Below are positions 4,416 to 42,799 of a DNA stretch of 64,000 bases, piece by piece. The notes under the pieces were generated by a model. The model did no database searches. It was not told the DNA's origin and saw only the letters and a list, made by a program, of their open reading frames with translations. The stretch is taken from the IMG/VR virus record IMGVR_UViG_3300045988_159857, positions 51,791 through 115,790 of that record. One strand, given 5' to 3'. Position 1 is the stretch's first letter. Every line of letters begins with the position of its first letter. The position numbers were made by a program, and so were the translations under genes. Origin of the DNA: a virus.

Positions 4416-5498
4416 TTACTTGTAAATCTTAAGTACTTGTCCAACATAAATCCTGTTAGGATTAGAGATACCGTTGTCAGAAGCTATCTTACGATAGTTT
4501 GTATGGTATTTTACAGCAATACTAGAAAGGGTATCTCCACGCTTAACAGTATAAGTTACATAAGAAGGTTTGGGTGTACCAACTTTATTGTTTACAATCT
4601 TTTGGATAGTATCATAATCGTAACCTGCTGCAGTTAACTTATTCTTACGTTCAGCTCCATTACCCCATTGCCCCTTAAGTACTTCGTTAGCAATTTCTTC
4701 ATTTGATTTAACAGGAACAGTTTTAGTTACTCTTTCGTTAACAATTTTTTGAACAGCACTGTAGTCGTAACCAGCTTCTGTCAAACGTTGTTTACGTTCA
4801 TCACCGTTACCCCATTGTCCGTTTATAATTTCCGTAGCAATTTCCTCATTTGATTTCTTCACAGGAACGGTGTCGGTTGTAGTATCAGAAGATTTAATAA
4901 CTTCATTATACATAATGTTCATATCAACGTTTCCTGAAATACCGTCTACAGAACCCTTTGATGAATACTGCCAAATATCGTATGTTCTTGTAAAGTCGTT
5001 AACCTTCGAGGCGTATTCTGCTACCCACTTACTAACATTGTCGTACCAAGCATCGGTCATTTTCTCGTTCCAGAATGCCGAGCGTGACGAATAAATACCC
5101 ATCTTATAACCAGCTGCGGTTAACTGATTATAAAATTCTTTCATTATTTCTAACATTTTCTCGTTACTAATTGTTCGCCAGTCAAGTCCTTTTGTATTCT
5201 CGACATCAATGTACACAGGACCATCAATAGTCTTACCATTAAGTAATCTCTTAATGTGAGACATTTCACTAGTTACTTTACTTGTTGTTAAAGCATAACT
5301 AAAGAAATATACCGAGACAGGAATACCTACCCTGCGACACTCAGCATAGTTTCTTTCAAACTGTTTGTCATCTTGTGATTTAAGGTCATTACCAAGACCA
5401 CAGCGAATAATAGCGAATTGTACACCAGAAGCCTTTACTTTGTCCCAGTTAATTTCGCCTTGATATTTCGACACATCAATACCTTTAAATTCTGCCAT
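4416..5498 (-). CDS. endolysin: GH25 muramidase + 2 x CW_7 (Cpl-7-type) repeats + LysM
   Basis: N-terminus [27 protein letters not shown] is GH25-type. Two near-identical repeats occur (SNEEIAxExxxGQWGNGxERKxxLTxAGYDY). The C-terminal LysM reads [43 protein letters not shown]. Confidence 0.93.
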
Positions 5499-5529
5499 AT
5501 AATAATCTCCTTTTTAATTATTTAATATT

Positions 5530-5703
5530 TTAGGTAAGTGTTTCTTTGTAAGGACATGTTTCTAAACACTTGTCTAAGTCACAATAAGTGTCATATACAG
5601 CGTCGAACACACTGTTATTCTGTTCCATCGCTTTTTCTTTTATTGAGTCTCCAACAGGACATTCATCACACTTTAAGTATTTTGTTCTATCAAATATATC
5701 AAT
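5530..5703 (-). CDS. candidate small Cys-rich protein (about 55-57 aa; start non-canonical ATT or ATA)
   Basis: The frame is open for 60 codons between TAA 5715..5713 and TAA 5532..5530 on the coding strand. AGGTGG lies at 5712..5707. ATT 5703 overlaps the upstream TGA as ATTGA, and ATA 5697 lies 9 nt from the SD. It encodes ...KCDECPVGD...YCDLDKCLETCPY.... The only ATG (5628) would give 32 aa (MEQNNS...KETLT) without an RBS. Confidence 0.35.
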   Translation of the reverse strand: MDIFDRTKYLKCDECPVGDSIKEKAMEQNNSVFDAVYDTYCDLDKCLETCPYKETLT

Positions 5704-5887
5704 TACCCACCTTTACATATAACCCACAATGACAAGGTCCAGGGTCCTTACAGTTTATAAAATCTTTACACATACATTTAGTGTCTTCATTTTTAATTAA
5801 ACGACAAGGACAATATCCATCATTATCTTTTAATTTCTTTCTAATGGAGTTTACAAGACTTTCGTCATTGTTGACGACTATCTTCAT
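5699..5887 (-). CDS. ferredoxin:thioredoxin-reductase catalytic-subunit-like (FTR/FDR-like) mini-protein
   Basis: 62 aa with a CPC-x9-CMC-x11-CHC pattern (GYCPCRLIKNEDTKCMCKDFINCKDPGPCHCGLYV). This recalls the CPC..CPC..CHC signature of FTR catalytic subunits. RBS GAGGTGA. Directly follows the nrdG-like gene. Confidence 0.6.
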   Translation of the reverse strand: MKIVVNNDESLVNSIRKKLKDNDGYCPCRLIKNEDTKCMCKDFINCKDPGPCHCGLYVKVGN

Positions 5888-5888
5888 T

Positions 5889-6362
5889 TTAACTTATCAC
5901 CTCAGCATATTGATTGTCACTTACTAAATCTATTCCTAATATTTTGTCATAATGGGGTTTTTGATTGGGAATAAATCTCCCGTATTTGATAATGATATTT
6001 TCATATTTACTTAACCAAAGTACTTTATCTTGTAACTCATCTTTATAATATCCTGTGTAGATAATAATTTTTGCATCAGTATAATTTCGCGCTGTCTTTA
6101 CTAAGCTCTTTAAATCTTCCCAACTATCAAAAGGTTCCAACCCTCCACAAACAATTGCTTTTGTGATATTGTTATTTATGAACTTTTTAACAATTGAACC
6201 TTCCGTTACATAAATATCTTTTTCATTTGTAAGGGAGATGTTTTGACAGACACAGTTCCCATTTTCCTTGTTACATTTGAAAGAACACTTTGGAAAGATT
6301 ATAAACATTGAAGGTTCTTTGTAATTACAGAAATCCTCGTATATTATATCTTTAACAAACAT
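5889..6362 (-). CDS. nrdG: anaerobic RNR activating protein-like radical-SAM enzyme (NrdG-like)
   Basis: N-terminal Cys cluster region is FPKCSFKCNKENGNCVCQN. The GGLEP SAM-binding-like motif is present. Size is 157 aa. Lies immediately downstream of nrdD. Confidence 0.7.
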   Translation of the reverse strand: MFVKDIIYEDFCNYKEPSMFIIFPKCSFKCNKENGNCVCQNISLTNEKDIYVTEGSIVKKFINNNITKAIVCGGLEPFDSWEDLKSLVKTARNYTDAKIIIYTGYYKDELQDKVLWLSKYENIIIKYGRFIPNQKPHYDKILGIDLVSDNQYAEVIS

Positions 6363-6821
6363 TTACATCACCATGTCGTGTTCTAATACCGAGTACCACT
6401 TACGCATATCTCCTTCTTTACGGCGAACCGTTTGCCAACTACTAACAGGGGTGTAGAAACCTACAACTCTACGGTATTTGTCCTTAACGCCTTTCCCACA
6501 CATAGGGCACTTTGTAGTTCCTATGAAAGAGTGTCCGTCTTCACATACATTTATTGTGGTAGTAAACGCCGAATATATTACCTTATGTTCCGCAAGATAA
6601 TTTAACATTTCCCAAGCAGCTTCTTCTGTCGGGAATCTATTTTCAATGTTAATGTGTGCAATAGCTCCTCCGCTACAAAGATTGTCTAATACACTACTTA
6701 CAGCACACTTTTCTTCAATAGTACATTTTTCATAAAGGGGTATCCACTGATTTGACAGTATAAAGTATGAGTTGTCTCCTGTAACTACTTTAGACTTTAT
6801 ATTTAATTCATTGAACTTCAT
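6363..6821 (-). CDS. nrdD: anaerobic ribonucleoside-triphosphate reductase, C-terminal fragment (glycyl-radical domain)
   Basis: Contains LSNQWIPL and SGGAIAHINI. Zn site is CEDGH..CPMCG. Glycyl-radical motif is RRVVGFYTPVSSW. AAGGAG lies 8 nt upstream of the third codon ATG (6821); the ORF-track start is 6827. Confidence 0.85.
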   Translation of the reverse strand: MKFNELNIKSKVVTGDNSYFILSNQWIPLYEKCTIEEKCAVSSVLDNLCSGGAIAHINIENRFPTEEAAWEMLNYLAEHKVIYSAFTTTINVCEDGHSFIGTTKCPMCGKGVKDKYRRVVGFYTPVSSWQTVRRKEGDMRKWYSVLEHDMVM

Positions 6822-7638
6822 TACCATAACTCCTTAATTCACTAATAAAATTTTCAAACTGACTGCGATATATCGTCATATAGTTTAATTTATTTTTAAT
6901 TGCAAGTTCATGTTTTTTCTTGTCTAAGATTGACCAAGTGTATATTATCATATTTGACCAATCGTCTCCTTTCTGAAGTAGTTCGTTCAGAACTTTTACA
7001 TCACGGTCGCATTTATCATTGTATGCGTGGTCAAAATGTGAGGGGTGTATATTCAACTCAATAAATAAATCTTGTGATTTTATATAGAAATCACACTTAT
7101 AAGGGTATCTTTCATCTGTGTATTGACATATTATATCATCTTTATTATATTTACATTGTAAGGCTTCGTAAGCAAGATGTTCATAACTAGAAGTTGCATA
7201 TGTCCCATTTTTCTTGCGGGTTTCGTTTGCAACCATACTTCTTCTTTTATACTCTTCTTTCGAAATAGTTTTTCTATTCCTTCTTGCAGAATCAGACATC
7301 CTTTTGTGGTATAAGTCGTACTCCTCTTTTGTCCAAGAATTTCTGGACTGTTCTTTTTTGTATTCCCTATTATCACGATAGTCGTCCGAAACATTTTGCC
7401 AGAACTCTTTTAGGGTATTAGAAATCTTCTCACTACGTTTACGGTTGTATTCTTCCCACATACCATTATTCTTTAATTTATCATTAACTTTTCTAACCCC
7501 GGCACCAGATTTTTCATTAAGTTCTTTCTGATTCCAATTTCCAATTGACCATCCCTCATCAATATATCTTGACAAATCCTCTGTTCTCACTTTAGTGTTT
7601 ATGTGGTCCTTATTTATAAAAGTATATATCTTTCCCAT
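6808..7638 (-). mobile_element. free-standing homing-endonuclease-like gene inserted in nrdD
   Basis: Start trimmed to MGKIYTF (ATG 7638) behind AAAGGTGA. The basic middle region has NUMOD3-like repeats (KRSEKISNTLKEFW; RKTISKEEYKRRS). The C-terminus YKCDFYIKSQDLFIELNIHPSH resembles Vsr/DUF559-type PD-(D/E)xK nuclease cores. The gene sits exactly between the two nrdD fragments. Confidence 0.6.
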
Positions 7639-7704
7639 CAAATCACCTTTACCAATTGATTTTACGTATATATACAATTTTAAATTTGAAATCAGTGGTT
7701 ACCT

Positions 7705-9399
7705 TTAACGTATTCTATATCTTTCTATGTATTTCTCGTCCATATCTAATCCATTTCGAATAGCGGTGTCAAATGTCACCTTTATGTCACCATTTTTTTT
7801 AGTTACTTTAACAATATTAGTGCTATTTATCTTGTAATAGTGGTCCTTGTATTCAAATTCATAATCATAAGCGAGTTTTCTTGCATCCTCAAATAAAAGT
7901 TTGTCTGCAGCACACATGACTCCTGCAGCGTTTTCAGCCGGTATCTGTTCAATATTAAACGTAAACTCGTCTGTAAAATTATCTTTCACATCATTAAGGA
8001 CATTAAATATATCTTTTGCAAACTCAATACCCTCTTCTGTGTAAGACTTGTATCCCAATTCATCTGTTTGAATGAAACCAAACTCACACATAACTTCATA
8101 CATTCCAAGAATACCTATAGTACAGTATTGTTTATCAAGTTCTACGGCACCTTCTTGATAATTTGGAAGTAATCCTTTTTCAATATTACGTTTAAGTATA
8201 TGTCGCATAGCATATAAAGCCTGACAATCAAGGGTTGTTCTCTCTCTTAATTTATCTAAGTACCTTTTCTTGTTACACTTAGTTTCATAAGCAATACGTA
8301 CAAGGTTTATTGTAGAAACACGACAACTACCTACACTAAGAGCACTACCACCTACACTATTTTGAAAAGCTGTTAATTTTGAAGTATCTGAAAGTAATCT
8401 ACAACAGTTAGATAACGAGGTTACTTGGTCACTAATAAATAAATTACTATCAGCCCATTTCATGTTATGTTTACTAGCCCAACGAGCAAATTCCTCGTCT
8501 TGAAACCTACCATCCTTATACAGAAATGACATAGTTAGAACAGGAAAAGTAAACATTTGTTCTGAACGTATGTCAGACACAACTCTCATAAAGTCTTTTT
8601 GGAACTGCATTATTTCTTCAATACTGTCTATTGCAAAAGTTCCGTCAGGATATTCAAGTCCCCCAAATAAGGCCTCTAAGTATTTTCTATCAAATATAGA
8701 CATATTTGTAAAGGCACTTTGGTCAATCCTTAAAAAGGGCTGGTTAAGTCTAAATATCAACTTTTGGAAACACTGGTCTCTGTAATATCCAGGGTCTTTT
8801 ATGTAAAATCCTGTCTCAATATCCTTTTTCCAGAACCAATATGCCCATATTAAAATATTTGGAAGTCCTACTGCCCCACTTTGTCTATTAGATAAAAAAG
8901 ATATAAACTCTATGCAGTCATCAAGAAATGTAGTTAAATGTTTTGCTGGTTTGTTGTTATAATTGTTTCCGAGGAAGAATAGTCCTTCGCGAGCTAATCT
9001 TGATAAGTCTTGTGCCCAACAATAGGCGAATAAACTACATGAAGTACTATCATTAAGATAAAAACCTTTACTAAATTCTTGTTCCAACCAATCTTTAGCT
9101 ACTTTAATTCCAAAAAACTTCTTTATCTCTATAAAGACTTTATTGAGTCCAAAAAGTTTGTCAGAACTTTTTCCTTTTTCAGTCATAAAGGAACGTATGT
9201 CACGATGACTTGAATTAGCATTAGGGTCAATTGAGGCATCAGCCAAGTTTTCAGCTACAATAAAATTTTTCAAAAATTCAGAATAATCTAATTGTGACTC
9301 GTCAACACCGTTAAGTATTTCAAAATCGTTGCCATATTTTATACGCAGGGCATTGAGGGTGCGTTCAAAATCTTTGTTAAGTTTCAACTCGATTTGCAT
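7705..9399 (-). CDS. nrdD: anaerobic ribonucleoside-triphosphate reductase, N-terminal/catalytic fragment
   Basis: 564 aa with class III RNR motifs: SNCCRLLSD finger-loop-like motif and NIEQIPAENAAG. It ends after AADKLLFED plus a 59-aa non-conserved tail. The YxSNQWIPL continuation is found in ORF 6363..6821. Confidence 0.9.
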   Translation of the reverse strand: MQIELKLNKDFERTLNALRIKYGNDFEILNGVDESQLDYSEFLKNFIVAENLADASIDPNANSSHRDIRSFMTEKGKSSDKLFGLNKVFIEIKKFFGIKVAKDWLEQEFSKGFYLNDSTSCSLFAYCWAQDLSRLAREGLFFLGNNYNNKPAKHLTTFLDDCIEFISFLSNRQSGAVGLPNILIWAYWFWKKDIETGFYIKDPGYYRDQCFQKLIFRLNQPFLRIDQSAFTNMSIFDRKYLEALFGGLEYPDGTFAIDSIEEIMQFQKDFMRVVSDIRSEQMFTFPVLTMSFLYKDGRFQDEEFARWASKHNMKWADSNLFISDQVTSLSNCCRLLSDTSKLTAFQNSVGGSALSVGSCRVSTINLVRIAYETKCNKKRYLDKLRERTTLDCQALYAMRHILKRNIEKGLLPNYQEGAVELDKQYCTIGILGMYEVMCEFGFIQTDELGYKSYTEEGIEFAKDIFNVLNDVKDNFTDEFTFNIEQIPAENAAGVMCAADKLLFEDARKLAYDYEFEYKDHYYKINSTNIVKVTKKNGDIKVTFDTAIRNGLDMDEKYIERYRIR

Positions 9400-9402
9400 A
9401 TA

Positions 9403-9621
9403 CTAATTAATTCCTCTTCCTTGATTATTAACCCATTCTACAGCTTCAGTAAATCTAAGTAGTTTTCCTTCTACTTCGAGAAGAGGAACTTCGTCAAAAC
9501 CTTTTGCAATAAGTTCGTTTACATCAAAATTTGTTTTCAATGTAAAGTCTATGTTAGCGTTATGAAGTTTCTTAAGTAACACCTCACATTTTGGACATCC
9601 TGTTGAATATAGCGTTACCAT
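9403..9621 (-). CDS. glutaredoxin/NrdH-like redoxin
   Basis: Start trimmed to MVTLYSTGCPKCEVLLKKL behind AAAGGAG (5-nt spacer). CPKC active site with thioredoxin-fold layout (..VPLLEVEGKLL..). Confidence 0.75.
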   Translation of the reverse strand: MVTLYSTGCPKCEVLLKKLHNANIDFTLKTNFDVNELIAKGFDEVPLLEVEGKLLRFTEAVEWVNNQGRGIN

Positions 9622-9637
9622 AATTACTCCTTTCTTT

Positions 9638-9811
9638 TCAATGGTTAAAGGTATTCTTAGGGGTAAAAGCTCCACAAGGACCTTCAGTGCCATGACAACC
9701 GTGTGTATAATTAGCACAAGCCCAACATCTCTGTTTGTCCCACTTTCTTTGAAGTGCTCCTTCACTCAATTCACTAAAACTATAAGTAGGTTGTTTAAAT
9801 TCAATACTCAT
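9638..9811 (-). CDS. small Cys-rich protein (57 aa), absent from the ORF track
   Basis: AAAGGAG lies 8 nt upstream of ATG 9811. Product is MSIEFKQPTYSFSELSEGALQRKWDKQRCWACANYTHGCHGTEGPCGAFTPKNTFNH, with Cys spacing CxxC-x6-C-x6-C. First gene after promoter 9866..9898. Confidence 0.55.
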   Translation of the reverse strand: MSIEFKQPTYSFSELSEGALQRKWDKQRCWACANYTHGCHGTEGPCGAFTPKNTFNH

Positions 9812-9865
9812 AAATATTACTCCTTTATATAAATTTTACAGAAATTTGTTTTTCTGTTTAATCGT

Positions 9866-9898
9866 ATTATAATAGAGTAATATATTTATTTCAACTAA
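9866..9898 (-). promoter_or_regulatory. sigma-A-like promoter with extended -35 TTAGTTGA (RNR operon)
   Basis: TTAGTTGAAA, 17 nt spacer, TATAAT. Confidence 0.6.
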
Positions 9899-9906
9899 GT
9901 TAACAT

Positions 9907-9931
9907 AAACCGATAGTTTATCTATCGGTTT
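9907..9931 (-). terminator. hairpin terminator overlapping stop of upstream ORF
   Basis: Stem AAACCGATAG/CTATCGGTTT with a 5-nt loop. The T run is weak. Confidence 0.5.
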
Positions 9932-10125
9932 AACATCATTAACAATTGGTCACCGTTTGCGACCTTTCTACCATAAAAATCTCTTGTTACGTTTAATTTT
10001 TTATCGTATTTACCCTTAATTCTTCCATAAAAATCTCGGATAATTTTATTTCCGGTACGGGAATCTGTTTCAACGAAACCTATTATCTTCCCTGTCCAAT
10101 CTTTTATCTTCTCTTTATGAACCAT
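9922..10125 (-). CDS. hypothetical protein with internal RDFYGR repeat
   Basis: 67 aa. Two copies of ..RDFYGR(I/K).. lie 20 aa apart. RBS GAAGGAG. Confidence 0.55.
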   Translation of the reverse strand: MVHKEKIKDWTGKIIGFVETDSRTGNKIIRDFYGRIKGKYDKKLNVTRDFYGRKVANGDQLLMMLNR

Positions 10126-10483
10126 CCAAAAACAACTCCTTCATATTAACAATCCTTGACAAGGCTTCTTCTACACTTAATACGTTGACTTGAGTTATAC
10201 CTTTTCGCCTGTCGTTAACAAATATATCTATTGCTTTCTCCAACTTTGCTGGATTAAACTGTTGGTAGTCGTATACAAATGTTCTAGGTATTGTATAATC
10301 ATTCTCCTGGTCAATTATTTGTGGTCCGTATTGAATTATTTTACTGAACCCGTCTTTTGTTTCAACTATAAATAAGTATTCACAGAAATTATCATTTATA
10401 CACGAAAGTGCAAACTCTCCAATATTATCTATTTCAAATGTACCATTAGATTGTCGAACATAGTAATAATTGAATGAAGGCAT
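10115..10483 (-). CDS. hypothetical protein
   Basis: Start trimmed to MPSFNYYYV (ATG 10483), 1 nt after the upstream TGA. The ORF-track start would overlap the upstream gene by 38 nt and has no RBS. Confidence 0.5.
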   Translation of the reverse strand: MPSFNYYYVRQSNGTFEIDNIGEFALSCINDNFCEYLFIVETKDGFSKIIQYGPQIIDQENDYTIPRTFVYDYQQFNPAKLEKAIDIFVNDRRKGITQVNVLSVEEALSRIVNMKELFLDGS

Positions 10484-10484
10484 A

Positions 10485-11081
10485 TCAATCAACAACCTCG
10501 TATTTAGTAATGTAAACCTCATGTGCTATACGAATTTCATAGTCCCCGTTATCAAGTAATTGTTTATGTTCTCTAGACCTAAATTCTCCTGACACTTTTA
10601 ACTTTGTGTCTACACATTTAAAGGATAATTCTTTCGCTATTTTACCCCAACATATACAAGGAATATATGAATTCAACCTTTTTTGTTTATCCTCGGATAC
10701 AATATTATTTGCCAGAATAAAGTGTAAGTTATCCTTACCTGTACGTGTTTTTCTTATTTCACTTATTTTACAAATCCTACCATCTAACTCAACACTATTT
10801 ACAACATCCGTTTTCGGTTTGTCAAAGTAGGTAAAAACGTACATATCCACTTTATTTTTGTTATTACTAACCTTATGCGAATATGACCTAATGTTTCCAG
10901 TTAAACTAACCATGTCATTTTCTTTGTACGGATTAGTAAATTTTTTAAACTTTATATTCAAGACATCTTCAGTTCCATTATCTCGAGGTACAAGTAATTT
11001 AGCTTTATTGAATTCAATTCCTTGTATTGTGTGGGAAGGTTCAATATCTTTGATATAACCTTTCAAAGTAACTTTGTTCAA
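10485..11081 (-). CDS. tandem OB-fold SSB-like protein
   Basis: Start trimmed to TTG 11081 (MNKVTLKGYIKD) behind GGGGTGA. Each half shows the bacterial SSB OB pattern. First half: VTLKGYIKDIEPSH..GIEFNKAKLLV. Second half: VELDGRICKISEIRKTRTGKDNLHFILANN...CICWGKIAKEL...LKVSGEFRSRE. Confidence 0.5.
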   Translation of the reverse strand: MNKVTLKGYIKDIEPSHTIQGIEFNKAKLLVPRDNGTEDVLNIKFKKFTNPYKENDMVSLTGNIRSYSHKVSNNKNKVDMYVFTYFDKPKTDVVNSVELDGRICKISEIRKTRTGKDNLHFILANNIVSEDKQKRLNSYIPCICWGKIAKELSFKCVDTKLKVSGEFRSREHKQLLDNGDYEIRIAHEVYITKYEVVD

Positions 11082-12407: not shown

Positions 12408-12806
12408 TCACCTAACCTTAAAGAATAACTGTCCTTGTACCCCTGTTGTAGGTAAAGTACTCCCGTAGACATTATTACTTAAAACTATTTTTTGCGTATC
12501 AGTAAAGGTTGGTTTGTTGAACTCATATGTTGTACTTCCTGATTTGGGAGTAAATATAGAACCGTTACAAGATAGATTACCAACATTAAACACTGGTGTA
12601 TCGTTTGTCACATCAATGTTTAACCACGACTTTGAAATTTTACTAGCCTTATCAGCCGTTCCCGCATTAACTTTTGTAACAGTTCTATCAGGTAGTCCTA
12701 CATAAAGATATTTAGTACTTGTGTTAACAAAAAGTTCTCTGTCATCCAAAGTAGCAGGAGTACTTCCACCACCATTTATACTAATTGGTACATTAAGTGT
12801 TTCCAT
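12408..12806 (-). CDS. putative tail-fiber-like protein
   Basis: Start trimmed to METLNVPI (ATG 12806) behind AAAGGAG. The motif LDDRELFVNTSTKYLYVG is typical of phage fiber N-termini. Confidence 0.45.
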   Translation of the reverse strand: METLNVPISINGGGSTPATLDDRELFVNTSTKYLYVGLPDRTVTKVNAGTADKASKISKSWLNIDVTNDTPVFNVGNLSCNGSIFTPKSGSTTYEFNKPTFTDTQKIVLSNNVYGSTLPTTGVQGQLFFKVR

Positions 12807-13548
12807 TAGTTTTCTCCTTTTTCTCTTTTTGTTTTTTTTCAAATTCCTTTACTATTTTAATTTCCTCTTCTGTAAAAGGAACTTGTTCTATTTGTGTTTC
12901 CCCTTTTCTAACACTGTTAATAAATTTTATGGCATTAGAAAGTTTAGAAGCTTCAGGGTCATCTTTAATTTCTTTATTAAGTGTTTCCGACTTTAAATCT
13001 AAAGAGTCAAAGTAATAGTTAATAACTTCTTGTCTTTCCTCTTCAGTAGCCTTATCCCATCTGTCATCTATTTCAAGTCCCACATCAGAAAGAAGTAATC
13101 CGTCAAGATGGTCAATATGGTGTTGCATAACTCTTGCAGCCATACCTATCAACTGTACACTTTGTATTTTACCAAGTGGTGTTTGATAAGTTACATTTAT
13201 TTTAGGGTGTCTTATTCTAATAAATGTTTTACCGGGAATACTATGACAAGTTTCTTTTGAAAGCTCAATACCCTCTACTTTGTCAATTATAGGATTAACA
13301 AACGTCCTTATATCACCATCAAAATTTATACAAATAATACGTTTATTGTAACCTAATTGATTTGCCGACAACGCACAAATTTTCTCATCAGAACGAATGA
13401 CAGCTTTAAGTTTAGAAACAATTGTTTGAACTTCATTGTTTTTCTTTGTTAAGTCAAATTCGTCGCATCTCTCTGATAAACTATCATAATCAGTAACAAT
13501 GTCCTTTTTACTTAATTTTCTAATTTCATCAAAATTAAAAATTTCCAC
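12793..13548 (-). CDS. def: peptide deformylase homolog with non-canonical active site
   Basis: Motif 1 is ICALSANQLG (canonical GxGxAAxQ). Motif 2 is ETCHSIPG (canonical EGCLS). Motif 3 is QHHIDHLDG (canonical QHExDH). GTG start behind AAAGGAG. Charged C-terminal tail. Confidence 0.8.
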   Translation of the reverse strand: MEIFNFDEIRKLSKKDIVTDYDSLSERCDEFDLTKKNNEVQTIVSKLKAVIRSDEKICALSANQLGYNKRIICINFDGDIRTFVNPIIDKVEGIELSKETCHSIPGKTFIRIRHPKINVTYQTPLGKIQSVQLIGMAARVMQHHIDHLDGLLLSDVGLEIDDRWDKATEEERQEVINYYFDSLDLKSETLNKEIKDDPEASKLSNAIKFINSVRKGETQIEQVPFTEEEIKIVKEFEKKQKEKKEKTNGNT

Positions 13549-30861: not shown

Positions 30862-31254
30862 TTACTCACTCTCCTTTAATTTATTTTTTATGTATCTATA
30901 GGTTTTATACCAATTTATTTTACCCCCAGGAACACTTCTATCATCAACTATAAACAAAGCACATAATTTTCTAGGTTTAGTTTCAATTGAAGCTTCTTCT
31001 AAGGTTAGTATTGGTAAGTCCCATTTATGAATCATTTTAACAGCATAATCATATCGTTCATCACATCGACATGTCCATAATATAAGAGTTAAGCCAAGTT
31101 CTTCAACTAATTTTTTAGTATATTTTTCCGCTTTTTTACATAATGTCTTACCGTCTGTTGTTAACGTACCGTCAAAATCAATTCCTACTATTTTTAAGTT
31201 TTTCGTATATTTCGATAACATCTGGTTTCTGTTTTTCATAATTATTTCCAACAT
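30862..31254 (-). CDS. HAD-like hydrolase (start uncertain; overlaps queC-like 3' end)
   Basis: GIDFDGTLT (DxDGT nucleophile motif) and a late IVDDR motif. No clear RBS for any of the three candidate ATGs (31254, 31239, 31221). Confidence 0.5.
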   Translation of the reverse strand: MLEIIMKNRNQMLSKYTKNLKIVGIDFDGTLTTDGKTLCKKAEKYTKKLVEELGLTLILWTCRCDERYDYAVKMIHKWDLPILTLEEASIETKPRKLCALFIVDDRSVPGGKINWYKTYRYIKNKLKESE

Positions 31255-31891
31255 AATTCATAAACTTTTCAATTGTTTCAGGGTCAAACTTATACCCATT
31301 GTTATAAAAAGCTGCAAACTTACTTGTGCACGATGTACACGACATACAAGGTTTACCATTTGTTGGATTATAACAACTTACAGTCGCATTGTAAGCTTCT
31401 TCAATATTACCTCCATTATCAACAAACATCTTTAACAATTCAGTCTTTGTAGTGTCTTTAAAAGGTAATTTTACTACCACAGGACCTTCCCTTGTTTCAC
31501 TTAATAGATATGAAATAACATCTCCAGCTTTTGCTGCAAAGAGCGTTGTCTTGTCATAATGAGTACTTGAACCTGTCGCTCCTAAATAGATTTCGTTACC
31601 GTAATGTGCTGCTAAAGTTACAAAATGTAAATTTCTCAAAGGTAAAAAATAATTCTGGGACGGTCTTTCGTACTCACTTAAATCATAATCAACAACTTTT
31701 AATCTTGTTGTGTCAATTTTACCTTCTTCAACAAGTTTCAACAATTTTTCATACTCTACTTCATTGTTCGCTGTATGTATCCTAACAAACAATATAGTGT
31801 CAGGTTTAATGAGGTGGTCAATCAACCAACTATCCATTCCACCACTATAAAGTAATACTTTACCTTCAGGAATTTTCAACACTTCGTTCAT
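31178..31891 (-). CDS. queC: QueC-like 7-cyano-7-deazaguanine synthase (divergent)
   Basis: PP-loop LLYSGGMDS. C-terminal Zn motif C-x9-C-x2-C-x2-C (SCYNPTNGKPCMSCTSCTSKF). RBS AAGGAG at 7 nt. Confidence 0.7.
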   Translation of the reverse strand: MNEVLKIPEGKVLLYSGGMDSWLIDHLIKPDTILFVRIHTANNEVEYEKLLKLVEEGKIDTTRLKVVDYDLSEYERPSQNYFLPLRNLHFVTLAAHYGNEIYLGATGSSTHYDKTTLFAAKAGDVISYLLSETREGPVVVKLPFKDTTKTELLKMFVDNGGNIEEAYNATVSCYNPTNGKPCMSCTSCTSKFAAFYNNGYKFDPETIEKFMNYVGNNYEKQKPDVIEIYEKLKNSRN

Positions 31892-32609
31892 ACATATTCT
31901 CCTTGTTTATAATTAAATGTCTGGTTTCATAGTTTCCGACTTTATGTGCTATAAAAGTTGTTAAAGGAAGAATTATTGCTTCATAACCTGTTTTAAGGAT
32001 AACTTGTAAACAAATCATTGTGACTACTTCCTTAACAGTCATAATAGGATTAAGAACTAAAAATGCTAAAGGTAAGTAAATACAACTATCTACTATCTCA
32101 CCTACAAAACTGGAAAGTATGGCTCTCAACCCAAAACCTTTATGGTCAGTCACTTCGACATGACGTTTTTTCATCTTAGCAAAGATAACATCGTTAGCAA
32201 AATCTCCGAAAACATAAGCTATAATAGAAGCAACACTACAAGCAAAACTACCATTAAGTATCAATTTAAAAGAAGTTGATATTGTTACATAATAATCATT
32301 ATTAGGTACCGGAAATTTACTGACAATTGCAAATATTATTATCATTAAAAGGTTACAAGTAAAGGCAATATAACACGTTCTTCTACTCCACTGATAACCG
32401 TAAACTTCTGAAAAGACGTCTGACAATATATAGGTTACAGGAAACAACATCACAGCACTTGTCATACTAAACCCGAAAAAGTTAAATATTCTAGAGGATA
32501 TAATGTTTGAAATTAACAATGCGCAGACAAATATAATAGTTAGAATATTTTGAACGGGACTTATATTCTTATTGTCAAGTCCAAATTCTTTTTGTAAAAA
32601 CTTTAACAT
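31866..32609 (-). CDS. yhhQ: YhhQ/COG1738-family queuosine-precursor (preQ0/preQ1) transporter
   Basis: Polytopic membrane protein. It aligns by eye with E. coli YhhQ over three segments: ISNIISSRIF..FPVTYILSDVFSEVYG, ASIIAYVFGDFANDVIFAKMK and SSFVGEIVDS. Confidence 0.8.
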   Translation of the reverse strand: MLKFLQKEFGLDNKNISPVQNILTIIFVCALLISNIISSRIFNFFGFSMTSAVMLFPVTYILSDVFSEVYGYQWSRRTCYIAFTCNLLMIIIFAIVSKFPVPNNDYYVTISTSFKLILNGSFACSVASIIAYVFGDFANDVIFAKMKKRHVEVTDHKGFGLRAILSSFVGEIVDSCIYLPLAFLVLNPIMTVKEVVTMICLQVILKTGYEAIILPLTTFIAHKVGNYETRHLIINKENMYERSVENS

Positions 32610-33289: not shown

Positions 33290-33322
33290 AGTATATATTA
33301 AATACAAATAAAATTCAACTAG
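33290..33322 (-). promoter_or_regulatory. sigma-A-like promoter (variant CTAGTTGA)
   Basis: CTAGTTGAAT, 17 nt spacer, TATACT. Overlaps the polA-C stop. Confidence 0.5.
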
Positions 33323-34490
33323 TTACAGTGTAATTTTTCAAAATAGTTTTAAGTTGCTCTTCACTAAGTTCTTCATACATAGTTTTTATTTGTTCAAAAC
33401 TTTTATTAAAATCATTATTATTAGTTTCCATCAAATTTTTGAAATTATCTTCTACAATTACAGAAAATTCATCAAGATACCAATTCGTTACACAATATGT
33501 GTCAACAGACATTGGAACTGTTGGTATTATATTCTTAGCACTAGTTACCATATCATCAATTAAGTACTCTGAAGCTTTTTCTGAAAATTTTTCAGGTACC
33601 TCTATAAGGATTTCATCGTGAACAGTATTTATTAGTTTTGCTTTGATATTATGAAGTCTTTCATCACTATAAATTTTTATAAGTGCTAATTTTGTAAGAG
33701 TTGCCGCTCCTCCCTGTACACAAGCATTTACACACTGTCTCTCAGCCTGACTTATAAATCCACCATTGTTTTTAATATCTATTTTATCTTTTATTGCATT
33801 TTCTTTGATTACATTTATTTGTTTTAGACTTTTAGCTTCAAGTAATTGCTTCATATAAATATCTATTTTAGGATTCACAGTTTTACCAACAAGTCCTTTA
33901 CAATATAACAAAGGATTTTCTGATATATTTGTTTTTTCAGATAAATCTTTCAAAGTAAACTTCGGTAATAAAATATCTGGTAATCGTCTTCTTCTACCTA
34001 CAATGTCTTCAACATACCCTTTTGTATGTGCCATTTCCATAGTACTATCTATCCATTTTTTAACTGAAGGGAAAGCATTAAAAAATTTGTCTATTATTTC
34101 TTGTGCCTCCTCAGTAGACTTACCTATTTGTTCTCCAACAGACTTAGCACCTCTACCGTACAAAATACCTAAAAGTATACTTTTAGCTAATGTTCTTCTA
34201 TGAGCTCCTTCTTTGTTTTTATGTGTCTTATACCCACAAGTAACTTTATTACCTTCGAAAACTATTTCAGTACCTTCAGGATAAAATTCTAGACATTCTT
34301 CATAAGGATAATTGAACGACTGTGAAGCTATAACTGAATATAGGTCACGCTTTTGTTTATATGCCTCAATCATTCGAGGGTCGTTTGAATAGAAAGCTGT
34401 CAAACGAGGTTCCTGACCACTATAATCTCCGCCAACTATAACATTTTTACATCTTACATTAACACTATTTTTAACATCTTCCAAAGTCAA
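33315..34490 (-). CDS. polA: family-A DNA polymerase, C-terminal part (motifs A, B, C)
   Basis: Motif A is VIVGGDYSGQEPRL, motif B is RRTLAKSILLGILYGRGAKS and motif C is NTVHDEILIEV. The TTG start overlaps the upstream TGA (GTTTGA) just after GAGGAGG. Confidence 0.9.
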   Translation of the reverse strand: MTLEDVKNSVNVRCKNVIVGGDYSGQEPRLTAFYSNDPRMIEAYKQKRDLYSVIASQSFNYPYEECLEFYPEGTEIVFEGNKVTCGYKTHKNKEGAHRRTLAKSILLGILYGRGAKSVGEQIGKSTEEAQEIIDKFFNAFPSVKKWIDSTMEMAHTKGYVEDIVGRRRRLPDILLPKFTLKDLSEKTNISENPLLYCKGLVGKTVNPKIDIYMKQLLEAKSLKQINVIKENAIKDKIDIKNNGGFISQAERQCVNACVQGGAATLTKLALIKIYSDERLHNIKAKLINTVHDEILIEVPEKFSEKASEYLIDDMVTSAKNIIPTVPMSVDTYCVTNWYLDEFSVIVEDNFKNLMETNNNDFNKSFEQIKTMYEELSEEQLKTILKNYTVTS

Positions 34491-41508: not shown

Positions 41509-42135
41509 TTATTTACGAATCAAATCATAAAATTCAGAACGTAGAGCAGGGTTTGTTTTGAAATGTCCCCTTAAAGCGGCTGTCCTTGTCACTGTCCCGG
41601 GTTTCTTGACACCTCGCATAGTCATACAGGTATGTTCCCCTTCAATAACGACAATAATATTGTCAGTATTAAGAATTTTACTTAATACCTCTGCAATATC
41701 AGTTCCAAGTCTTTCTTGAAGTTGAGGTCTTTTTGCACACATCTCTGCTACACGGGCTATCTTTGATAAACCAATTACCTTACCGTTGGGAATATATCCT
41801 ACCGAAACAGTTGCATTAACCATAGGAAGAAGATGGTGTTCACACATTGAGTAAATCGGGATATGTCCTTCAACGACTAAGTCTCCACTTTCAACGTCCT
41901 CAAAACAAACATCGAATTTTTTAGCAATTTCGTCGTTTGTATAATCAAGTCCTTCAAAGATTTCTTTCCAAGCTTTATAAAAACGATGTGGCGTTTTTAC
42001 CAAACCTTCTCGGTTAGGGTCTTCACCTATACACACAAGCATATTTCTAACACAAGTTTCAAAAATATCTTCAACAGACCCGTTCTTGTTTATGTTTTTT
42101 ATTTCTTCTCTGTTAAGTGTTTCGTCGGTCCTCAT
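41509..42135 (-). CDS. folE: GTP cyclohydrolase I
   Basis: Contains SMCEHHLLP and the conserved VIEGEHTCMTMRGV. Confidence 0.92.
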   Translation of the reverse strand: MRTDETLNREEIKNINKNGSVEDIFETCVRNMLVCIGEDPNREGLVKTPHRFYKAWKEIFEGLDYTNDEIAKKFDVCFEDVESGDLVVEGHIPIYSMCEHHLLPMVNATVSVGYIPNGKVIGLSKIARVAEMCAKRPQLQERLGTDIAEVLSKILNTDNIIVVIEGEHTCMTMRGVKKPGTVTRTAALRGHFKTNPALRSEFYDLIRK

Positions 42136-42136
42136 A

Positions 42137-42799
42137 TTAAACTCCTCTCATATCAACAGGCCAAATAAATTTATGCAGCTGTAACTGCATTCTAATATCA
42201 TTGAGTGAATGAAATTGTAGATATTCTACAATTTCCTTTGGTTCAATATCACCAAAAATAGGACTTACAAATATCTGACAAACAGGATTATATGTTGTAA
42301 CTATTGATTTCATCTGTTCGAGGTCTTCTTTGTTCCCTACAACGAATTTAAAAACATCCTTTGGTCTAACAAAACTTAAATTTTCAACTAACATTTTATC
42401 AGCCATTCCAGATGAGTGTGACTTCCAGTCAACAGTATACATAAGATTATCAAGTAAGTGAACAGGTAATTTATTAGACAATTCATTTATTGATAAACTT
42501 CCATTTGTTTCAATATTTACTTCATAACCATTCGTCAAAAGTTCTTTAACAAGTACATCAACATCTTTATGGATAAGAGGTTCTCCCCCTGTTAATGTTA
42601 CCTTTTTACATTTATAACCATTAACAGCGTTAATTATTTCTTCTATTGACATTTCAGTATAATCGTTATTCGTAAAAGCATAAACTGAATCGCAATAAGA
42701 ACATCTAAGATTACAACCGTAAAGTCTGATGAATGTTGCTAAATAACCGGCTCTTGAGCCTTCTCCTTCTATACTATTGAATATTTCAACTACTTTCAT
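42137..42799 (-). CDS. queE: 7-carboxy-7-deazaguanine synthase (radical SAM)
   Basis: Contains SIEGEGSRAGYLATFIRLYGCNLRCSYCDS and TLTGGEPL. Confidence 0.9.
   Translation of the reverse strand: MKVVEIFNSIEGEGSRAGYLATFIRLYGCNLRCSYCDSVYAFTNNDYTEMSIEEIINAVNGYKCKKVTLTGGEPLIHKDVDVLVKELLTNGYEVNIETNGSLSINELSNKLPVHLLDNLMYTVDWKSHSSGMADKMLVENLSFVRPKDVFKFVVGNKEDLEQMKSIVTTYNPVCQIFVSPIFGDIEPKEIVEYLQFHSLNDIRMQLQLHKFIWPVDMRGV

What the first reader, a model, noticed from the sequence alone, without database searches (positions are those of the whole stretch)
5530..9811. Class III RNR operon that appears to carry its own ferredoxin-type reductant chain (FTR-like reductase plus NrdH/Grx-like redoxin plus small Cys-rich ORFs)
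Seen in sequence: one promoter (9866..9898) drives the following genes in order.
- A 57-aa CxxC-x6-C-x6-C ORF.
- A CPKC redoxin.
- The split nrdD.
- An nrdG-like gene.
- A 62-aa CPC-x9-CMC-x11-CHC protein.
- A further open frame encoding CDECP...CDLDKCLETCP, with ferredoxin-like CxxxCP spacing.
The nrdD finger-loop-like motif is SNCCRL, with two adjacent Cys.

Established knowledge: T4 and E. coli NrdD (NrdD1) use formate. Other NrdD subtypes use thioredoxin or, in Methanosarcina barkeri, an NrdH-like redoxin reduced by a ferredoxin:disulfide reductase related to the FTR catalytic subunit (Stubbe laboratory work). As I recall, an adjacent Cys pair on the finger loop marks the redoxin-dependent subtypes.

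Inference: the phage imports a complete Fd to FDR to NrdH to NrdD electron path, independent of host formate or thioredoxin. I am not aware of a characterised phage example.
Basis: partly seen in the sequence, partly recalled or inferred. Interest (0 to 1): 0.75.

Follow-up and report, generated by a model that had tools for sequence, protein, structure and literature searches.

The report
Phage anaerobic RNR with mini-FDR reductase
This phage's oxygen-sensitive DNA-precursor enzyme (class III ribonucleotide reductase) sits next to its own small thiol redoxin and a 62-residue iron-sulfur-type disulfide reductase, a conserved but untested gene set in hundreds of gut phages that would probably power dNTP synthesis from host ferredoxin; the two small cysteine-rich genes are not ferredoxins.

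Summary

The 62-aa protein belongs to a large family of about 60-residue "mini" ferredoxin:disulfide-reductase (FDR/FTR-catalytic-subunit) homologues:
- Six Cys are invariant and the His is nearly so.
- 29 of 30 members hit Pfam FeThRed_B.
- The AlphaFold model (pLDDT 94.7) best matches the Methanosarcina acetivorans FDR.

In 76 of 80 viral loci the order redoxin-NrdD-NrdG-miniFDR is conserved. All 126 neighbouring NrdDs carry the active-site Glu, and nearly all carry the double Cys. That is the redoxin-dependent NrdD2 type (closest to Thermotoga maritima), not the M. barkeri NrdD3 type.

In cellular genomes some relatives of the mini-FDR sit next to canonical thioredoxin.

A dedicated FDR-to-redoxin-to-NrdD relay is therefore well supported. 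An imported ferredoxin is not. The two small Cys ORFs are lineage-specific, the CxxxCP motif is not conserved, and no ferredoxin motif occurs in the window.

The nrdD split comes from a 1.16-kb mobile insertion that near-identical relatives lack.

The same gene set was already visible in Clostridium phage c-st. I rate this a new variant of a known kind, of moderate interest.

The parts
9866..9894 (-). Sigma-70-like promoter candidate (TTGAAA-17-TATAAT) in the intergenic gap upstream of the first ORF
   Evidence: 11 of 12 matches, the best in 5300-10200. Promoter-like sites are not enriched over shuffles (25 against 22.1), so this is only plausible.
9638..9811 (-). orf57: small Cys/His protein (RCxxCANxxHGCHGxEGPCGAF), function unknown, lineage-specific
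   Evidence: strong RBS; conserved in L003, L005 and L008 (56% identity). No Pfam, NCBIfam or PHROG hit. Present in only 4 of 92 related loci.
9403..9621 (-). 72-aa thioredoxin-fold redoxin with a GCPKC active site (glutaredoxin-like, MTH895 type); proposed direct reductant of NrdD
   Evidence: Thioredoxin_3 E=4.6e-4. TIGR00412 8e-5, with NrdH only 18.7 bits. PHROG 22 'thioredoxin domain' 5e-6. Best PDB match is MTH895, 1ILO. A homologue lies directly upstream of NrdD in 114 of the 172 related loci scanned, with motif CPKC in 70 and CPRC in 12.
7705..9399 (-). NrdD N-terminal fragment (564 aa): barrel with Y126-C127, N331-C332-C333-R334 and E484. The last ~57 aa (after about residue 507) have no NrdD homology because they read into the insertion.
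   Evidence: Pfam NRDD 4.9e-53. T. maritima NrdD 4COI E=7e-115 with residue-level alignment. Junction analysis.
6756..7918 (-). 1163-nt insertion that splits nrdD. It replaces 52 nt of the intact gene of relatives and carries a 276-289-aa ORF (6808-7638/7677), a probable homing-endonuclease-like mobile gene.
   Evidence: window 9950-7919 and 6755-5400 align at 95-97% to L005, where NrdD is one 641-aa ORF. The ORF has 5-8 copies per genome in Lak megaphages. No Pfam or PHROG hit. No group I intron hit in Rfam.
6363..6827 (-). NrdD C-terminal fragment (Zn site CxxxH...CPMC and glycyl-radical motif RRVVGFY), with its own RBS (AAGGAG, 8 nt, ATG 6821)
   Evidence: Pfam NRDD positions 437-562, 1.7e-25. 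Sequence. Homology to intact NrdD resumes at 6755.
5889..6362 (-). NrdG-like radical-SAM activase
   Evidence: Fer4_12 3.9e-7. TIGR02491 NrdG 2.1e-6. PHROG 626. A homologue lies between NrdD and the mini-FDR in nearly all related loci.
5699..5887 (-). 62-aa mini ferredoxin:disulfide reductase (FTRc/FDR core): C26-P-C28, C38-M-C40, C52-H53-C54
   Evidence: FeThRed_B E=0.0014 for this protein, and 29 of 30 family members hit (best 8e-8). Six invariant Cys. AF2 pLDDT 94.7. Foldseek top hits 4TPU and 7PWE, TMq 0.74-0.75. 1398 cluster representatives. 418 IMG/VR contigs.
5530..5697 (-). orf4C: small conserved ORF with CxxC...CxxxC and no canonical start codon (candidates ATA 5697 or ATT 5703); function unknown; not a ferredoxin
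   Evidence: Homologous to a 56-aa ATG-initiated gene in L008/L009. The internal ATG is lost in L005. Only 5 of 92 loci have it. No family hit apart from a chance-level PadF match at E=0.034. No homologue in the protein collection.

Best explanation
The operon encodes a redoxin-dependent (NrdD2-type) class III ribonucleotide reductase together with a dedicated two-protein disulfide relay.

**Inferred mechanism**
1. A host low-potential one-electron donor (ferredoxin, possibly flavodoxin) reduces the 62-aa mini-FDR.
2. By analogy with FTR/FDR, the mini-FDR would hold a [4Fe-4S] cluster on C26, C38, C40 and C52, next to a C28-C54 redox-active disulfide, with H53.
3. The mini-FDR reduces the C9-x2-C12 disulfide of the 72-aa GCPKC redoxin.
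4. The redoxin re-reduces the disulfide formed in NrdD at each turnover, between the beta-A Cys (C127) and one of the adjacent finger-loop Cys (C332/C333).
5. E484 serves in proton transfer.
6. NrdG with SAM installs the glycyl radical, which in this phage sits on a separately translated C-terminal fragment.

**Shown here:** gene content, motif conservation, fold similarity, subtype-defining residues and very strong gene-neighbourhood conservation.

**Inferred only:** cluster binding, the electron donor, the direction and partners of thiol-disulfide exchange, and activity of the split NrdD.
For: **Mini-FDR identity**
- CPC-x9-C[M/I]C-x~11-C[H/C]C is invariant in 30 diverse members.
- 29 of 30 members hit Pfam FeThRed_B.
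- The profile hits only FDR-type structures, 7PWE and 4TPU, with Cys-for-Cys alignment.
- The AF2 model has pLDDT 94.7. It matches M. acetivorans FDR 4TPU (TMq 0.74, prob 0.99, 32% identity) and the Desulfotalea Grx/FDR fusion 7PWE (TMq 0.75).

**NrdD subtype**
- The best solved relative is T. maritima NrdD, E=7e-115.
- Y126-C127, NCCR and E484 align to Tm Y124-C125, S328CCR331 and E495.
- Double Cys, Glu present and no Met is the signature read as thioredoxin-only reduction (PMC9669993; PMC4493059).

**Linkage**
- 418 IMG/VR contigs carry the mini-FDR.
- 76 of 80 fetched viral loci have NrdD on the upstream side, nearly all with the redoxin before it and NrdG between it and the mini-FDR. The other 4 loci are cut off upstream or show no NrdD match.
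- All 126 neighbouring NrdDs have the Glu. 95 have NCCR, 14 SCCR and 6 MCCR.
- The redoxin motif is CP[K/R]C in 82 of 114.

**Independent pairing with redoxins**
- In cellular loci without NrdD, a canonical WCGPC thioredoxin lies immediately downstream in about 12 of 34. One locus has a 2x[4Fe-4S] ferredoxin there.
- A natural Grx/FDR fusion has been crystallised (7PWE).

**Precedent**
- M. barkeri FDR with an NrdH-like redoxin delivers electrons to its class III RNR (Wei et al. 2015, cited in PMC8365446 and PMC9176816).
- The text of PMC6262447 says the Methanosarcina FDR reduces MaTrx5, the homologue of a GCPKC-motif Trx. That paper's Table 1 instead assigns FDR to the ACPYC homologue MaTrx1.
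Against: - No biochemistry exists for any mini-FDR.
- The window protein itself is below the Pfam gathering score (19.1 against 22 bits).
- Foldseek E-values are weak (0.05-0.15) because the protein is so short.
- At 62 aa it lacks everything outside the FTRc core (no variable subunit, no rubredoxin domain), so ferredoxin docking is unexplained.
- No ferredoxin or flavodoxin is encoded in the window.
- Other phage NrdDs with SCCR and Glu (ProddE, cr116_1, Aeromonas 2L372X, Vibrio SRILMA) have no FTR-like gene within 3 kb. The mini-FDR is therefore not required by this NrdD type.
- CrAss001-like phages carry a mini-FDR away from any NrdD.
- One NrdG-miniFDR fusion (P0216) could instead point to a role with the activase.
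- In this particular phage nrdD is split, so activity is unproven.
Confidence: 0.6

Rival explanations
1. The mini-FDR is a general thiol-redox auxiliary gene. It reduces host thioredoxins or other disulfide targets to remodel host redox state, and its position after nrdG is only operon convenience. The phage redoxin would be reduced by host thioredoxin reductase.
For: CrAss001-like phages carry the gene with no NrdD nearby, and it was interpreted as an auxiliary metabolic gene (PMC6235969). Cellular relatives pair with ordinary thioredoxin and with oxidative-stress genes such as rubredoxin and flavodiiron protein. NrdD2-type phage enzymes exist without it.
Against: 76 of 80 viral loci have NrdD just upstream of the mini-FDR, and most keep the full order redoxin-NrdD-NrdG-miniFDR, across NrdD identities from 24% to 98%. 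Every linked NrdD is the Glu-containing type and nearly all have the double Cys, so they need a protein disulfide reductant.
Confidence: 0.15
2. The mini-FDR serves the activase rather than the reductase. It would pass electrons to the radical-SAM [4Fe-4S] cluster of NrdG (the role flavodoxin plays in E. coli), or protect or repair that cluster.
For: It is always immediately downstream of nrdG, often overlapping it. One representative protein, P0216, is an in-frame NrdG-miniFDR fusion.
Against: All six Cys and the His that define disulfide-reductase chemistry are conserved, not just four cluster ligands. Some cellular relatives sit next to thioredoxin rather than radical-SAM genes. Only one fusion was seen, and it could be a lost stop codon or an assembly error.
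Confidence: 0.12
3. One reading: the small Cys-rich ORFs (orf57 and/or orf4C) are ferredoxin-type carriers, so the phage brings the whole chain from Fd to FDR to redoxin to NrdD.
For: Both are real, conserved, Cys-rich small genes in the same transcription unit. orf4C has a chance-level match (E=0.034) to a ferredoxin-like PadF subunit.
Against: Neither has a Fer4 or other family hit. Only four Cys are conserved in each, in zinc-knuckle-like spacing. The CxxxCP motif and the first Cys of that stretch are lost in the L008 homologue. They occur in 4-5 of the first 92 related loci and in none of the 80 genome loci. Genes downstream of the mini-FDR are otherwise unrelated.
Confidence: 0.05
4. In this particular phage the RNR is dead. 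The mobile insertion has inactivated nrdD, and the accessory genes are decaying passengers.
For: nrdD is interrupted by 1163 nt. No self-splicing intron is detected. The insertion is recent, since flanks are 95-97% identical to intact relatives.
Against: Both fragments are intact ORFs that keep every catalytic residue. The C fragment has its own RBS at ideal spacing. Split but functional phage RNR genes are common, with nrdD the most frequently split (PMC3653736). All neighbouring genes are intact.
Confidence: 0.08

Closest known systems
Methanosarcina barkeri class III RNR system: ferredoxin:disulfide reductase (FDR), NrdH-like redoxin and NrdD3 (Wei et al. 2015, Biochemistry 54:7019; cited in PMC8365446 and PMC9176816)
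   Same: The logic is the same: an FTRc-related Fe-S disulfide reductase plus a small operon-encoded thioredoxin-fold redoxin supplies electrons to a glycyl-radical RNR with adjacent finger-loop cysteines.
   Different: Here the NrdD has the active-site Glu and an NCCR loop (NrdD2/NrdDh1, T. maritima-like). M. barkeri NrdD3 has QCCR and no Glu. The reductase is a 62-aa core, whereas the only solved Methanosarcina FDR, the M. acetivorans enzyme 4TPU, is a ~170-residue chain with a rubredoxin domain. The carrier is a phage or prophage, not an archaeon. Nothing has been tested biochemically.
M. acetivorans FDR (PDB 4TPU) and the Desulfotalea psychrophila Grx/FDR fusion (PDB 7PWE)
   Same: They are the best structural and profile matches. 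CPC, CxC and C(H/Y)C align residue for residue.
   Different: Those proteins are 170-196 aa with extra domains (rubredoxin, glutaredoxin) and have CYC instead of CHC. The phage protein is only the ~60-aa core and keeps the His, as plant and cyanobacterial FTRc does.
Neisseria bacilliformis and Thermotoga maritima NrdD (NrdD2/NrdDh; thioredoxin-dependent class III RNR; PDB 4COI, 4U3E)
   Same: They share the beta-A Cys, the double-Cys finger loop and the Glu, with no Met. T. maritima NrdD is the closest solved homologue (E=7e-115). Clostridium phage NrdDs were already placed in NrdDh1 with the Thermotogales (PMC4493059).
   Different: Those enzymes use the general thioredoxin system. For T. maritima it is an unidentified protein larger than 10 kDa. 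No dedicated FDR has been described for them. The window enzyme has N in place of S in the motif, lacks the 13-residue Tm insert, and is split into two polypeptides.
Clostridium phage c-st genes CST074-CST077 (NC_007581)
   Same: The gene set is the same: glutaredoxin, nrdG, nrdD and a 63-aa protein 57% identical to the window mini-FDR.
   Different: The gene order is grx-nrdG-nrdD-miniFDR. nrdD carries an intein between the two loop cysteines instead of a split by an endonuclease-like gene. CST077 is annotated as hypothetical, with only a note of weak FTR similarity.
T4-type phage RNR accessory redoxins (nrdC thioredoxin, NrdH-like glutaredoxins)
   Same: A phage supplies its own small redoxin for its own RNR.
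   Different: As I recall, T4 redoxins are recharged by host thioredoxin reductase or glutathione. Here the phage also supplies the redoxin reductase, and it is of the Fe-S type.

Membership tests
FTR catalytic subunit / FDR superfamily (Pfam PF02943 FeThRed_B) | Six cysteines in three CxC motifs (CPC...CPC...CHC): four cluster ligands plus a redox-active disulfide | tested here: met
   C26-P-C28, C38-M-C40 and C52-H-C54. All six Cys are invariant in 30 relatives. The middle motif is C[M/I]C instead of CPC. They align Cys-for-Cys to 4TPU and 7PWE.
FTR catalytic subunit / FDR superfamily (Pfam PF02943 FeThRed_B) | Score above the Pfam gathering threshold | tested here: inconclusive
   The window protein scores 19.1 bits, below the 22-bit cut-off (E=0.0014). 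29 of 30 relatives match at E<=0.01, best 8e-8. Most relatives have a precomputed PF02943 hit.
FTR catalytic subunit / FDR superfamily (Pfam PF02943 FeThRed_B) | FTRc/FDR core fold | tested here: met
   AF2 pLDDT 94.7. Foldseek top hits are 4TPU (TMq 0.74) and 7PWE (TMq 0.75), prob 0.99, but E is 0.05-0.15. Cyanobacterial or plant FTRc structures were not retrieved.
FTR catalytic subunit / FDR superfamily (Pfam PF02943 FeThRed_B) | Binds a [4Fe-4S] cluster and catalyses ferredoxin-dependent disulfide reduction | not testable with these tools
   This needs anaerobic purification, spectroscopy and activity assays.
Classical heterodimeric FTR (plants, cyanobacteria) | Variable subunit partner and a ~110-aa catalytic subunit | tested here: not met
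   The protein is 62 aa and covers only Pfam positions 21-87 of 106. No variable-subunit-like gene lies in the operon.
NrdD2 (redoxin-dependent class III RNR; RNRdb NrdDh) | [quoted passage not shown] | tested here: met
   C127, N331-C332-C333-R334 and E484 from the residue-level alignment to T. maritima NrdD. Criteria are from PMC9669993 and PMC4493059.
NrdD2 (redoxin-dependent class III RNR; RNRdb NrdDh) | C-terminal glycyl-radical domain with a Zn site | tested here: met
   The C fragment matches NRDD positions 437-562 and carries CEDGH...CPMC and RRVVGFY. It is on a separate polypeptide.
NrdD3 (M. barkeri type) | Double-Cys loop (QCCR/A) with neither Met nor the active-site Glu | tested here: not met
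   E484 is present. The Glu is present in all 126 NrdDs linked to a mini-FDR.
NrdD1 (formate-dependent, T4 / E. coli type) | Single-Cys MGCR loop, no Glu | tested here: not met
   The loop is NCCR with the Glu. T4 NrdD structures did not appear among PDB sequence hits at E<=0.001.
NrdH-redoxin (TIGR02194) | Model score above cut-off; CVQC-type site | tested here: not met
   18.7 bits against a cut-off of 85.75, and the motif is CPKC. The closest models and structures are the MTH895/ArsE thioredoxin-like family (TIGR00412, 1ILO).
Ferredoxin (4Fe-4S, Fer4), for orf57 and orf4C | CxxCxxCxxxCP cluster motif or a Fer4-family HMM hit, conserved among homologues | tested here: not met
   There are no hits. 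The motif is absent from all six frames of the window. The CP and one Cys are not conserved in L008.
Group I intron (as in T4 nrdD/sunY), for the nrdD interruption | Match to Rfam Intron_gpI or a related model | tested here: not met
   No intron-family hit at E<=1 over 5000-10500 or at E<=10 over 6700-7960. The C fragment has its own RBS and ATG.

The most novel reading that the evidence does not exclude
A ~60-residue protein is the smallest functional FTR-type [4Fe-4S] disulfide reductase. Together with a CP(K/R)C mini-redoxin, it forms a mobile, phage-borne reductant cassette. The cassette wires NrdD2-type anaerobic ribonucleotide reduction directly to the host ferredoxin pool, bypassing NADPH/thioredoxin reductase and formate. 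It occurs in hundreds of gut phages and prophages and was derived from a cellular miniFDR-thioredoxin pair of Clostridia.
Probability: 0.5. Interest if true: 0.65.

Novelty: new variant of a known kind. Interest (0 to 1): 0.55.

Why it matters
**For the RNR field.** The physiological reductants of the double-Cys (NrdD2/NrdDh) class III enzymes are known for very few organisms. For the T. maritima enzyme, the closest solved relative of this one, the reductant remained an unidentified protein (PMC4493059). A conserved and compact gene cassette gives a directly testable candidate system of four small, clonable proteins.

**For Fe-S enzymology.** A 60-aa FTR core would be a minimal model for the unusual cluster-plus-disulfide chemistry.

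**For phage biology.** It would show that many gut phages of strict anaerobes bring both an RNR and its electron-delivery enzymes, tying phage dNTP supply to host ferredoxin. It would also reinterpret the 'ferredoxin-thioredoxin reductase' auxiliary genes annotated in crAss-like and other phages, and PHROG 38239, which is listed as 'unknown function'.

Tried and rejected
- **Near-identical DNA in GenBank phages:** none found.
- **Group I intron as the cause of the nrdD split:** rejected. Two Rfam scans found nothing, and the C fragment has its own RBS and ATG.
- **Programmed +1 frameshift fusing the mini-FDR to orf4C:** considered because no canonical start exists and an SD-like GGTGGG precedes the stop. 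Rejected because the relative frame differs in L008, which has an ordinary ATG.
- **Ferredoxin identity for orf57 and orf4C:** rejected. A homologue search with orf4C found nothing.
- **Classical plant or cyanobacterial FTRc as the closest relative:** not retrieved by profile or Foldseek. Only FDR-type entries appeared.
- **Grx-miniFDR fusions among 150 top family representatives:** none seen. I found only N-terminal extensions of unknown type and one NrdG fusion.
- **NrdD-linked loci in isolate genomes as native cellular operons:** rejected for Roseburia and Hominicoprocola, where they sit beside phage integrases together with ThyA/DHFR.
- **Primary papers on FDR and NrdD subtypes** (PMC4697749, PMC4246965, PMC6005431): not held in the library. 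Their content is cited second-hand.
- **Co-folding of redoxin, mini-FDR and NrdD:** not possible with the tools.

Full report
**What is there**

The window is AT-rich (about 31% GC) with negative GC skew throughout, and nearly all long ORFs are on the minus strand. Between 9894 and 5530 the minus strand carries, in order:

1. A promoter-like site, TTGAAA-17-TATAAT, at 9894..9866. It matches 11 of 12 positions and is the best in the region. Such sites are no more frequent than in shuffles (25 against 22.1).
2. orf57, 9638-9811, with a strong RBS.
3. A 72-aa redoxin, 9403-9621, starting MVTLYSTGCPKC.
4. NrdD N-terminal fragment, 7705-9399.
5. A 276-289-aa ORF, 6808-7638/7677.
6. NrdD C-terminal fragment, 6363-6827.
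7. NrdG, 5889-6362.
8. A 62-aa CPC/CMC/CHC protein, 5699-5887.
9. A further open frame, 5530-5697.
10. A GH25-CW_7-LysM endolysin, 4416-5498.

**The 62-aa protein is a minimal FDR/FTRc homologue**

- On its own it hits Pfam FeThRed_B at E=0.0014 (19.1 bits, below the 22-bit cut-off).
- It has 209 relatives of 59-80 aa in the 5.8-billion-protein collection, most with a precomputed PF02943 hit.
- In an alignment of 30 of them, C26, P27, C28, C38, C40, C52 and C54 are invariant and H53 nearly so. The pattern is CPC-x9-C[M/I]C-x~11-C[H/C]C.
- 29 of those 30 match FeThRed_B, best 8e-8.
- A profile of the family hits 1398 50%-identity cluster representatives, 603 of them at E<=1e-10.
- Against the PDB, its only meaningful hits are the Desulfotalea Grx/FDR fusion 7PWE and the M. 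acetivorans FDR 4TPU. The three CxC motifs align in register.
- The AlphaFold2 model is confident (pLDDT 94.7). Its top Foldseek matches are the same two entries (TMq 0.74-0.75, prob 0.99, 28-32% identity). E-values are only 0.05-0.15 for so short a query.
- In BFVD it matches a 69-aa phage protein already named 'ferredoxin thioredoxin reductase' (TMq 0.90).
- PHROGs lists the family (38239) as function unknown.

Cluster binding itself cannot be tested here.

**The NrdD is the redoxin-dependent type, but not the M. barkeri type**

- The N fragment matches T. maritima NrdD (4COI/4U3E) at E=7e-115.
- From that alignment, window Y126-C127 correspond to Tm Y124-C125 (the beta-A Cys). N331-C332-C333-R334 correspond to Tm S328-C-C-R331. 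E484 corresponds to Tm E495, the column that Burnim et al. use for the proton-donor Glu (PMC9669993).
- That paper and Aurelius et al. (PMC4493059) summarise the Stubbe-laboratory classification. NrdD1 has a single Cys (MGCR) and uses formate. NrdD2 has the extra Cys plus Glu, and when the loop Met is absent it is read as thioredoxin-only. NrdD3 has QCCR with neither Met nor Glu and uses an NrdH-like redoxin.
- The window enzyme has NCCR with Glu and no Met, so it is NrdD2/NrdDh.
- Aurelius et al. had already placed 'two Clostridium phage' NrdDs in NrdDh1 with the Thermotogales.
The specific analogy to the M. barkeri enzyme is only functional.

**The redoxin**

- It is a minimal thioredoxin-fold protein: Thioredoxin_3 at 4.6e-4, TIGR00412 (MTH895/ArsE family) at 8e-5, PHROG 22 'thioredoxin domain' at 5e-6, and best PDB match MTH895.
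- It does not qualify as NrdH (18.7 bits against a cut-off of 85.75).
- Its GCPKC site matches the motif of the M. mazei protein MmTrx4. The text of PMC6262447 says the M. acetivorans homologue of MmTrx4, MaTrx5, is reduced by FDR. That paper's own Table 1 assigns FDR to a different Trx, so I treat this only as a lead.

**Comparative genomics links the four genes**

- *Close relatives.* L003 and L005 (95-97% nt identity) have the same order: orf57, redoxin, an intact 641-aa NrdD, NrdG, mini-FDR, endolysin.
- *More distant phage-like contigs.* They keep redoxin-NrdD-NrdG-miniFDR while everything around it changes.
- *IMG/VR.* A scan found 418 contigs encoding a relative. Of the 80 fetched, 76 have NrdD just upstream, nearly all with redoxin and NrdG in the same order. 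NrdD identity to the window ranges from 24% to 71%. The other four are cut off upstream or show no NrdD match.
- *Linked NrdD type.* Across all fetched loci, all 126 NrdDs next to a mini-FDR have the Glu. 121 have the YC. The loops are NCCR (95), SCCR (14) or MCCR (6). The redoxin site is CPKC (70) or CPRC (12).
- *GTDB genomes.* More than 565 loci were found. About half of the 80 fetched have the NrdD module. Where I checked isolate genomes (Roseburia, Hominicoprocola), it lies beside a phage integrase with ThyA/DHFR, which indicates a prophage.
- *Cellular loci without NrdD.* In about 12 of 34 of these, a canonical WCGPC thioredoxin sits next to the mini-FDR, often immediately downstream. 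In a Phascolarctobacterium contig it is followed by rubredoxins and a flavodiiron protein. One locus has a true 2x[4Fe-4S] ferredoxin downstream.
- *GenBank phages.* The linked form appears in Clostridium phages c-st and D-1873. The c-st record already notes that CST077 is 'weakly similar to ferredoxin-thioredoxin reductase'.
- *CrAss001-like phages.* They have an unlinked copy that was read as an auxiliary metabolic gene (PMC6235969).
- *The converse does not hold.* Desulfovibrio phage ProddE, crAss-like cr116_1, Aeromonas 2L372X and Vibrio SRILMA have SCCR-plus-Glu NrdDs but no FTR-like gene within 3 kb.

**The small Cys-rich ORFs are not ferredoxins**

*orf57*
- It is conserved in the immediate lineage, with the motif RCxxCANxxHGCHGxEGPCGAF.
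- It has no family hit.
- It occurs in 4 of the first 92 loci scanned and in none of the 80 genome loci.

*The downstream frame (orf4C)*
- It is truly coding. It shares 42% identity with a called 56-aa gene in L008/L009 that starts with ATG.
- Among the near-identical relatives, three of the few substitutions are synonymous third-position changes in this frame, two of them upstream of the internal ATG. The stop position is kept, and L005 has lost the internal ATG.
- Only CxxC...CxxxC is conserved. The 'CP' and the first Cys of 'CDLDKC' are not.
- There is no canonical start codon. ATA 5697, 8 nt after GGTGGG, or ATT 5703, overlapping the upstream TGA, are candidates.
- A frameshift fusion to the mini-FDR is unlikely, because the relative frame differs in L008.

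*Wider context*
- Genes downstream of the mini-FDR in other loci are unrelated: dUTPase, kinases, HNH genes and others.
- No CxxCxxCxxxC motif exists in any frame of the 64-kb window.

The 'complete imported chain' is therefore not supported, and the donor must come from the host.

**The split nrdD**

- Window 7918-6756 (1163 nt) replaces 52 nt of the intact gene in L005.
- Protein-level homology runs through ...AADKLLFED in the N fragment and resumes at ...GDNSYFILSNQW in the C fragment. The intact relatives read LLYGKNKYFIYSNQW at this point.
- The N ORF reads about 57 codons into the insert.
- The C fragment has AAGGAG, 8 nt, then ATG (6821), in frame.
- The internal ORF has no family hit but occurs 5-8 times per genome in Lak megaphages, as expected of a mobile endonuclease-like gene.
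- Rfam finds no intron.
- I conclude it is a recent mobile-gene insertion that produces a two-piece NrdD. Split phage RNR genes are common (PMC3653736). Whether this one is active is unknown.

**Mechanism and rivals**

The best-supported reading (confidence about 0.6) is a relay: host ferredoxin, then the mini-FDR ([4Fe-4S] plus the C28/C54 disulfide), then the CPKC redoxin, then the NrdD C127/C332-333 disulfide. NrdG makes the glycyl radical. Gene content, motifs, fold and linkage are shown here. Every electron-transfer step is inferred.

The rivals are:
- A general redox auxiliary gene (0.15).
- A helper of NrdG, prompted by the single NrdG-miniFDR fusion P0216 (0.12).
- A dead RNR in this phage (0.08).

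**Novelty**

The concept of an FDR plus a redoxin feeding a class III RNR is known from M. barkeri. Phage FTR-like genes are annotated in databases, and the c-st operon has been public since 2005. In the searchable literature I did not find three things:
- Recognition that a roughly 60-aa mini-FDR forms a conserved cassette with a CP(K/R)C redoxin and NrdD2-type enzymes in hundreds of phages and prophages.
- A connection between this cassette and the annotated phage FTR-like genes.
- Any biochemistry on these proteins.

The key primary papers were not readable here, so prior mention cannot be excluded. I rate it a new variant of a known kind, with interest 0.55.

Noticed in passing
window 41509-43239 and 31178-32609 (minus strand): The window holds a 7-deazaguanine/queuosine-precursor gene set: GTP cyclohydrolase I (41509-42135), a QueE-like radical SAM protein (42137-42799), QueD/PTPS (42796-43239), QueC (31178-31891) and a Vut_1/YhhQ-type transporter (31866-32609). 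This suggests the phage DNA carries a 7-deazaguanine modification. QueE is a second radical-SAM enzyme that needs a low-potential reductant.
   Followed up: partly
window 33315-36103 (minus strand): The family A DNA polymerase is encoded by two overlapping ORFs. One carries the 3'-5' exonuclease and the N-terminal polymerase part (34487-36103). The other carries the C-terminal polymerase part (33315-34490).
   Followed up: no
window 6808-7677 (minus strand): The ORF that splits nrdD has no Pfam, NCBIfam or PHROG hit. It has 5-8 homologous copies per genome in Prevotella Lak megaphages, so it looks like an unclassified mobile endonuclease-like family. By my reading, its C-terminal part (YKCDFYI...DLFIELN) resembles a PD-(D/E)xK motif.
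   Followed up: partly
window 5695-5703 (minus strand): orf4C has no ATG, GTG or TTG start upstream of its conserved CxxC, although it is conserved as coding. Initiation probably occurs at ATA (8 nt after GGTGGG) or at ATT overlapping the TGA of the mini-FDR gene. All four close relatives share this arrangement.
   Followed up: partly
L001 (Clostridium phage c-st) 1993-4929: The c-st NrdD intein is inserted exactly between the two cysteines of the finger-loop motif: ASC|C...intein...HN|CRL. It therefore sits in the most critical catalytic motif of the enzyme.
   Followed up: partly
protein P0216 (232 aa); BFVD A0A8S5RYM0 (232 aa): P0216 is an in-frame NrdG-miniFDR fusion. A 232-aa phage protein in BFVD, named 'dihydrofolate reductase', also contains a mini-FDR domain. 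It may be the same kind of fusion under a wrong name.
   Followed up: no
L156 6001-9014 (Phascolarctobacterium MAG) and L130, L133, L142, L146, L151, L153, L155, L158, L163, L171: A cellular mini-FDR lies immediately upstream of a canonical WCGPC thioredoxin. In L156 this is followed by a flavin reductase-rubredoxin fusion, a rubredoxin and a flavodiiron protein. This looks like an undescribed ferredoxin-linked thioredoxin system of gut anaerobes.
   Followed up: partly
L008 8564-9646 and L009 3469-4551: Relatives of this phage carry an IS605 OrfB/TnpB (Cas12f-like) gene between orf4C and the endolysin. The window has nothing at that position.
   Followed up: no
window 12793-13548 (minus strand): The phage encodes a peptide deformylase, which is conserved in relatives L003 and L008.
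   Followed up: no
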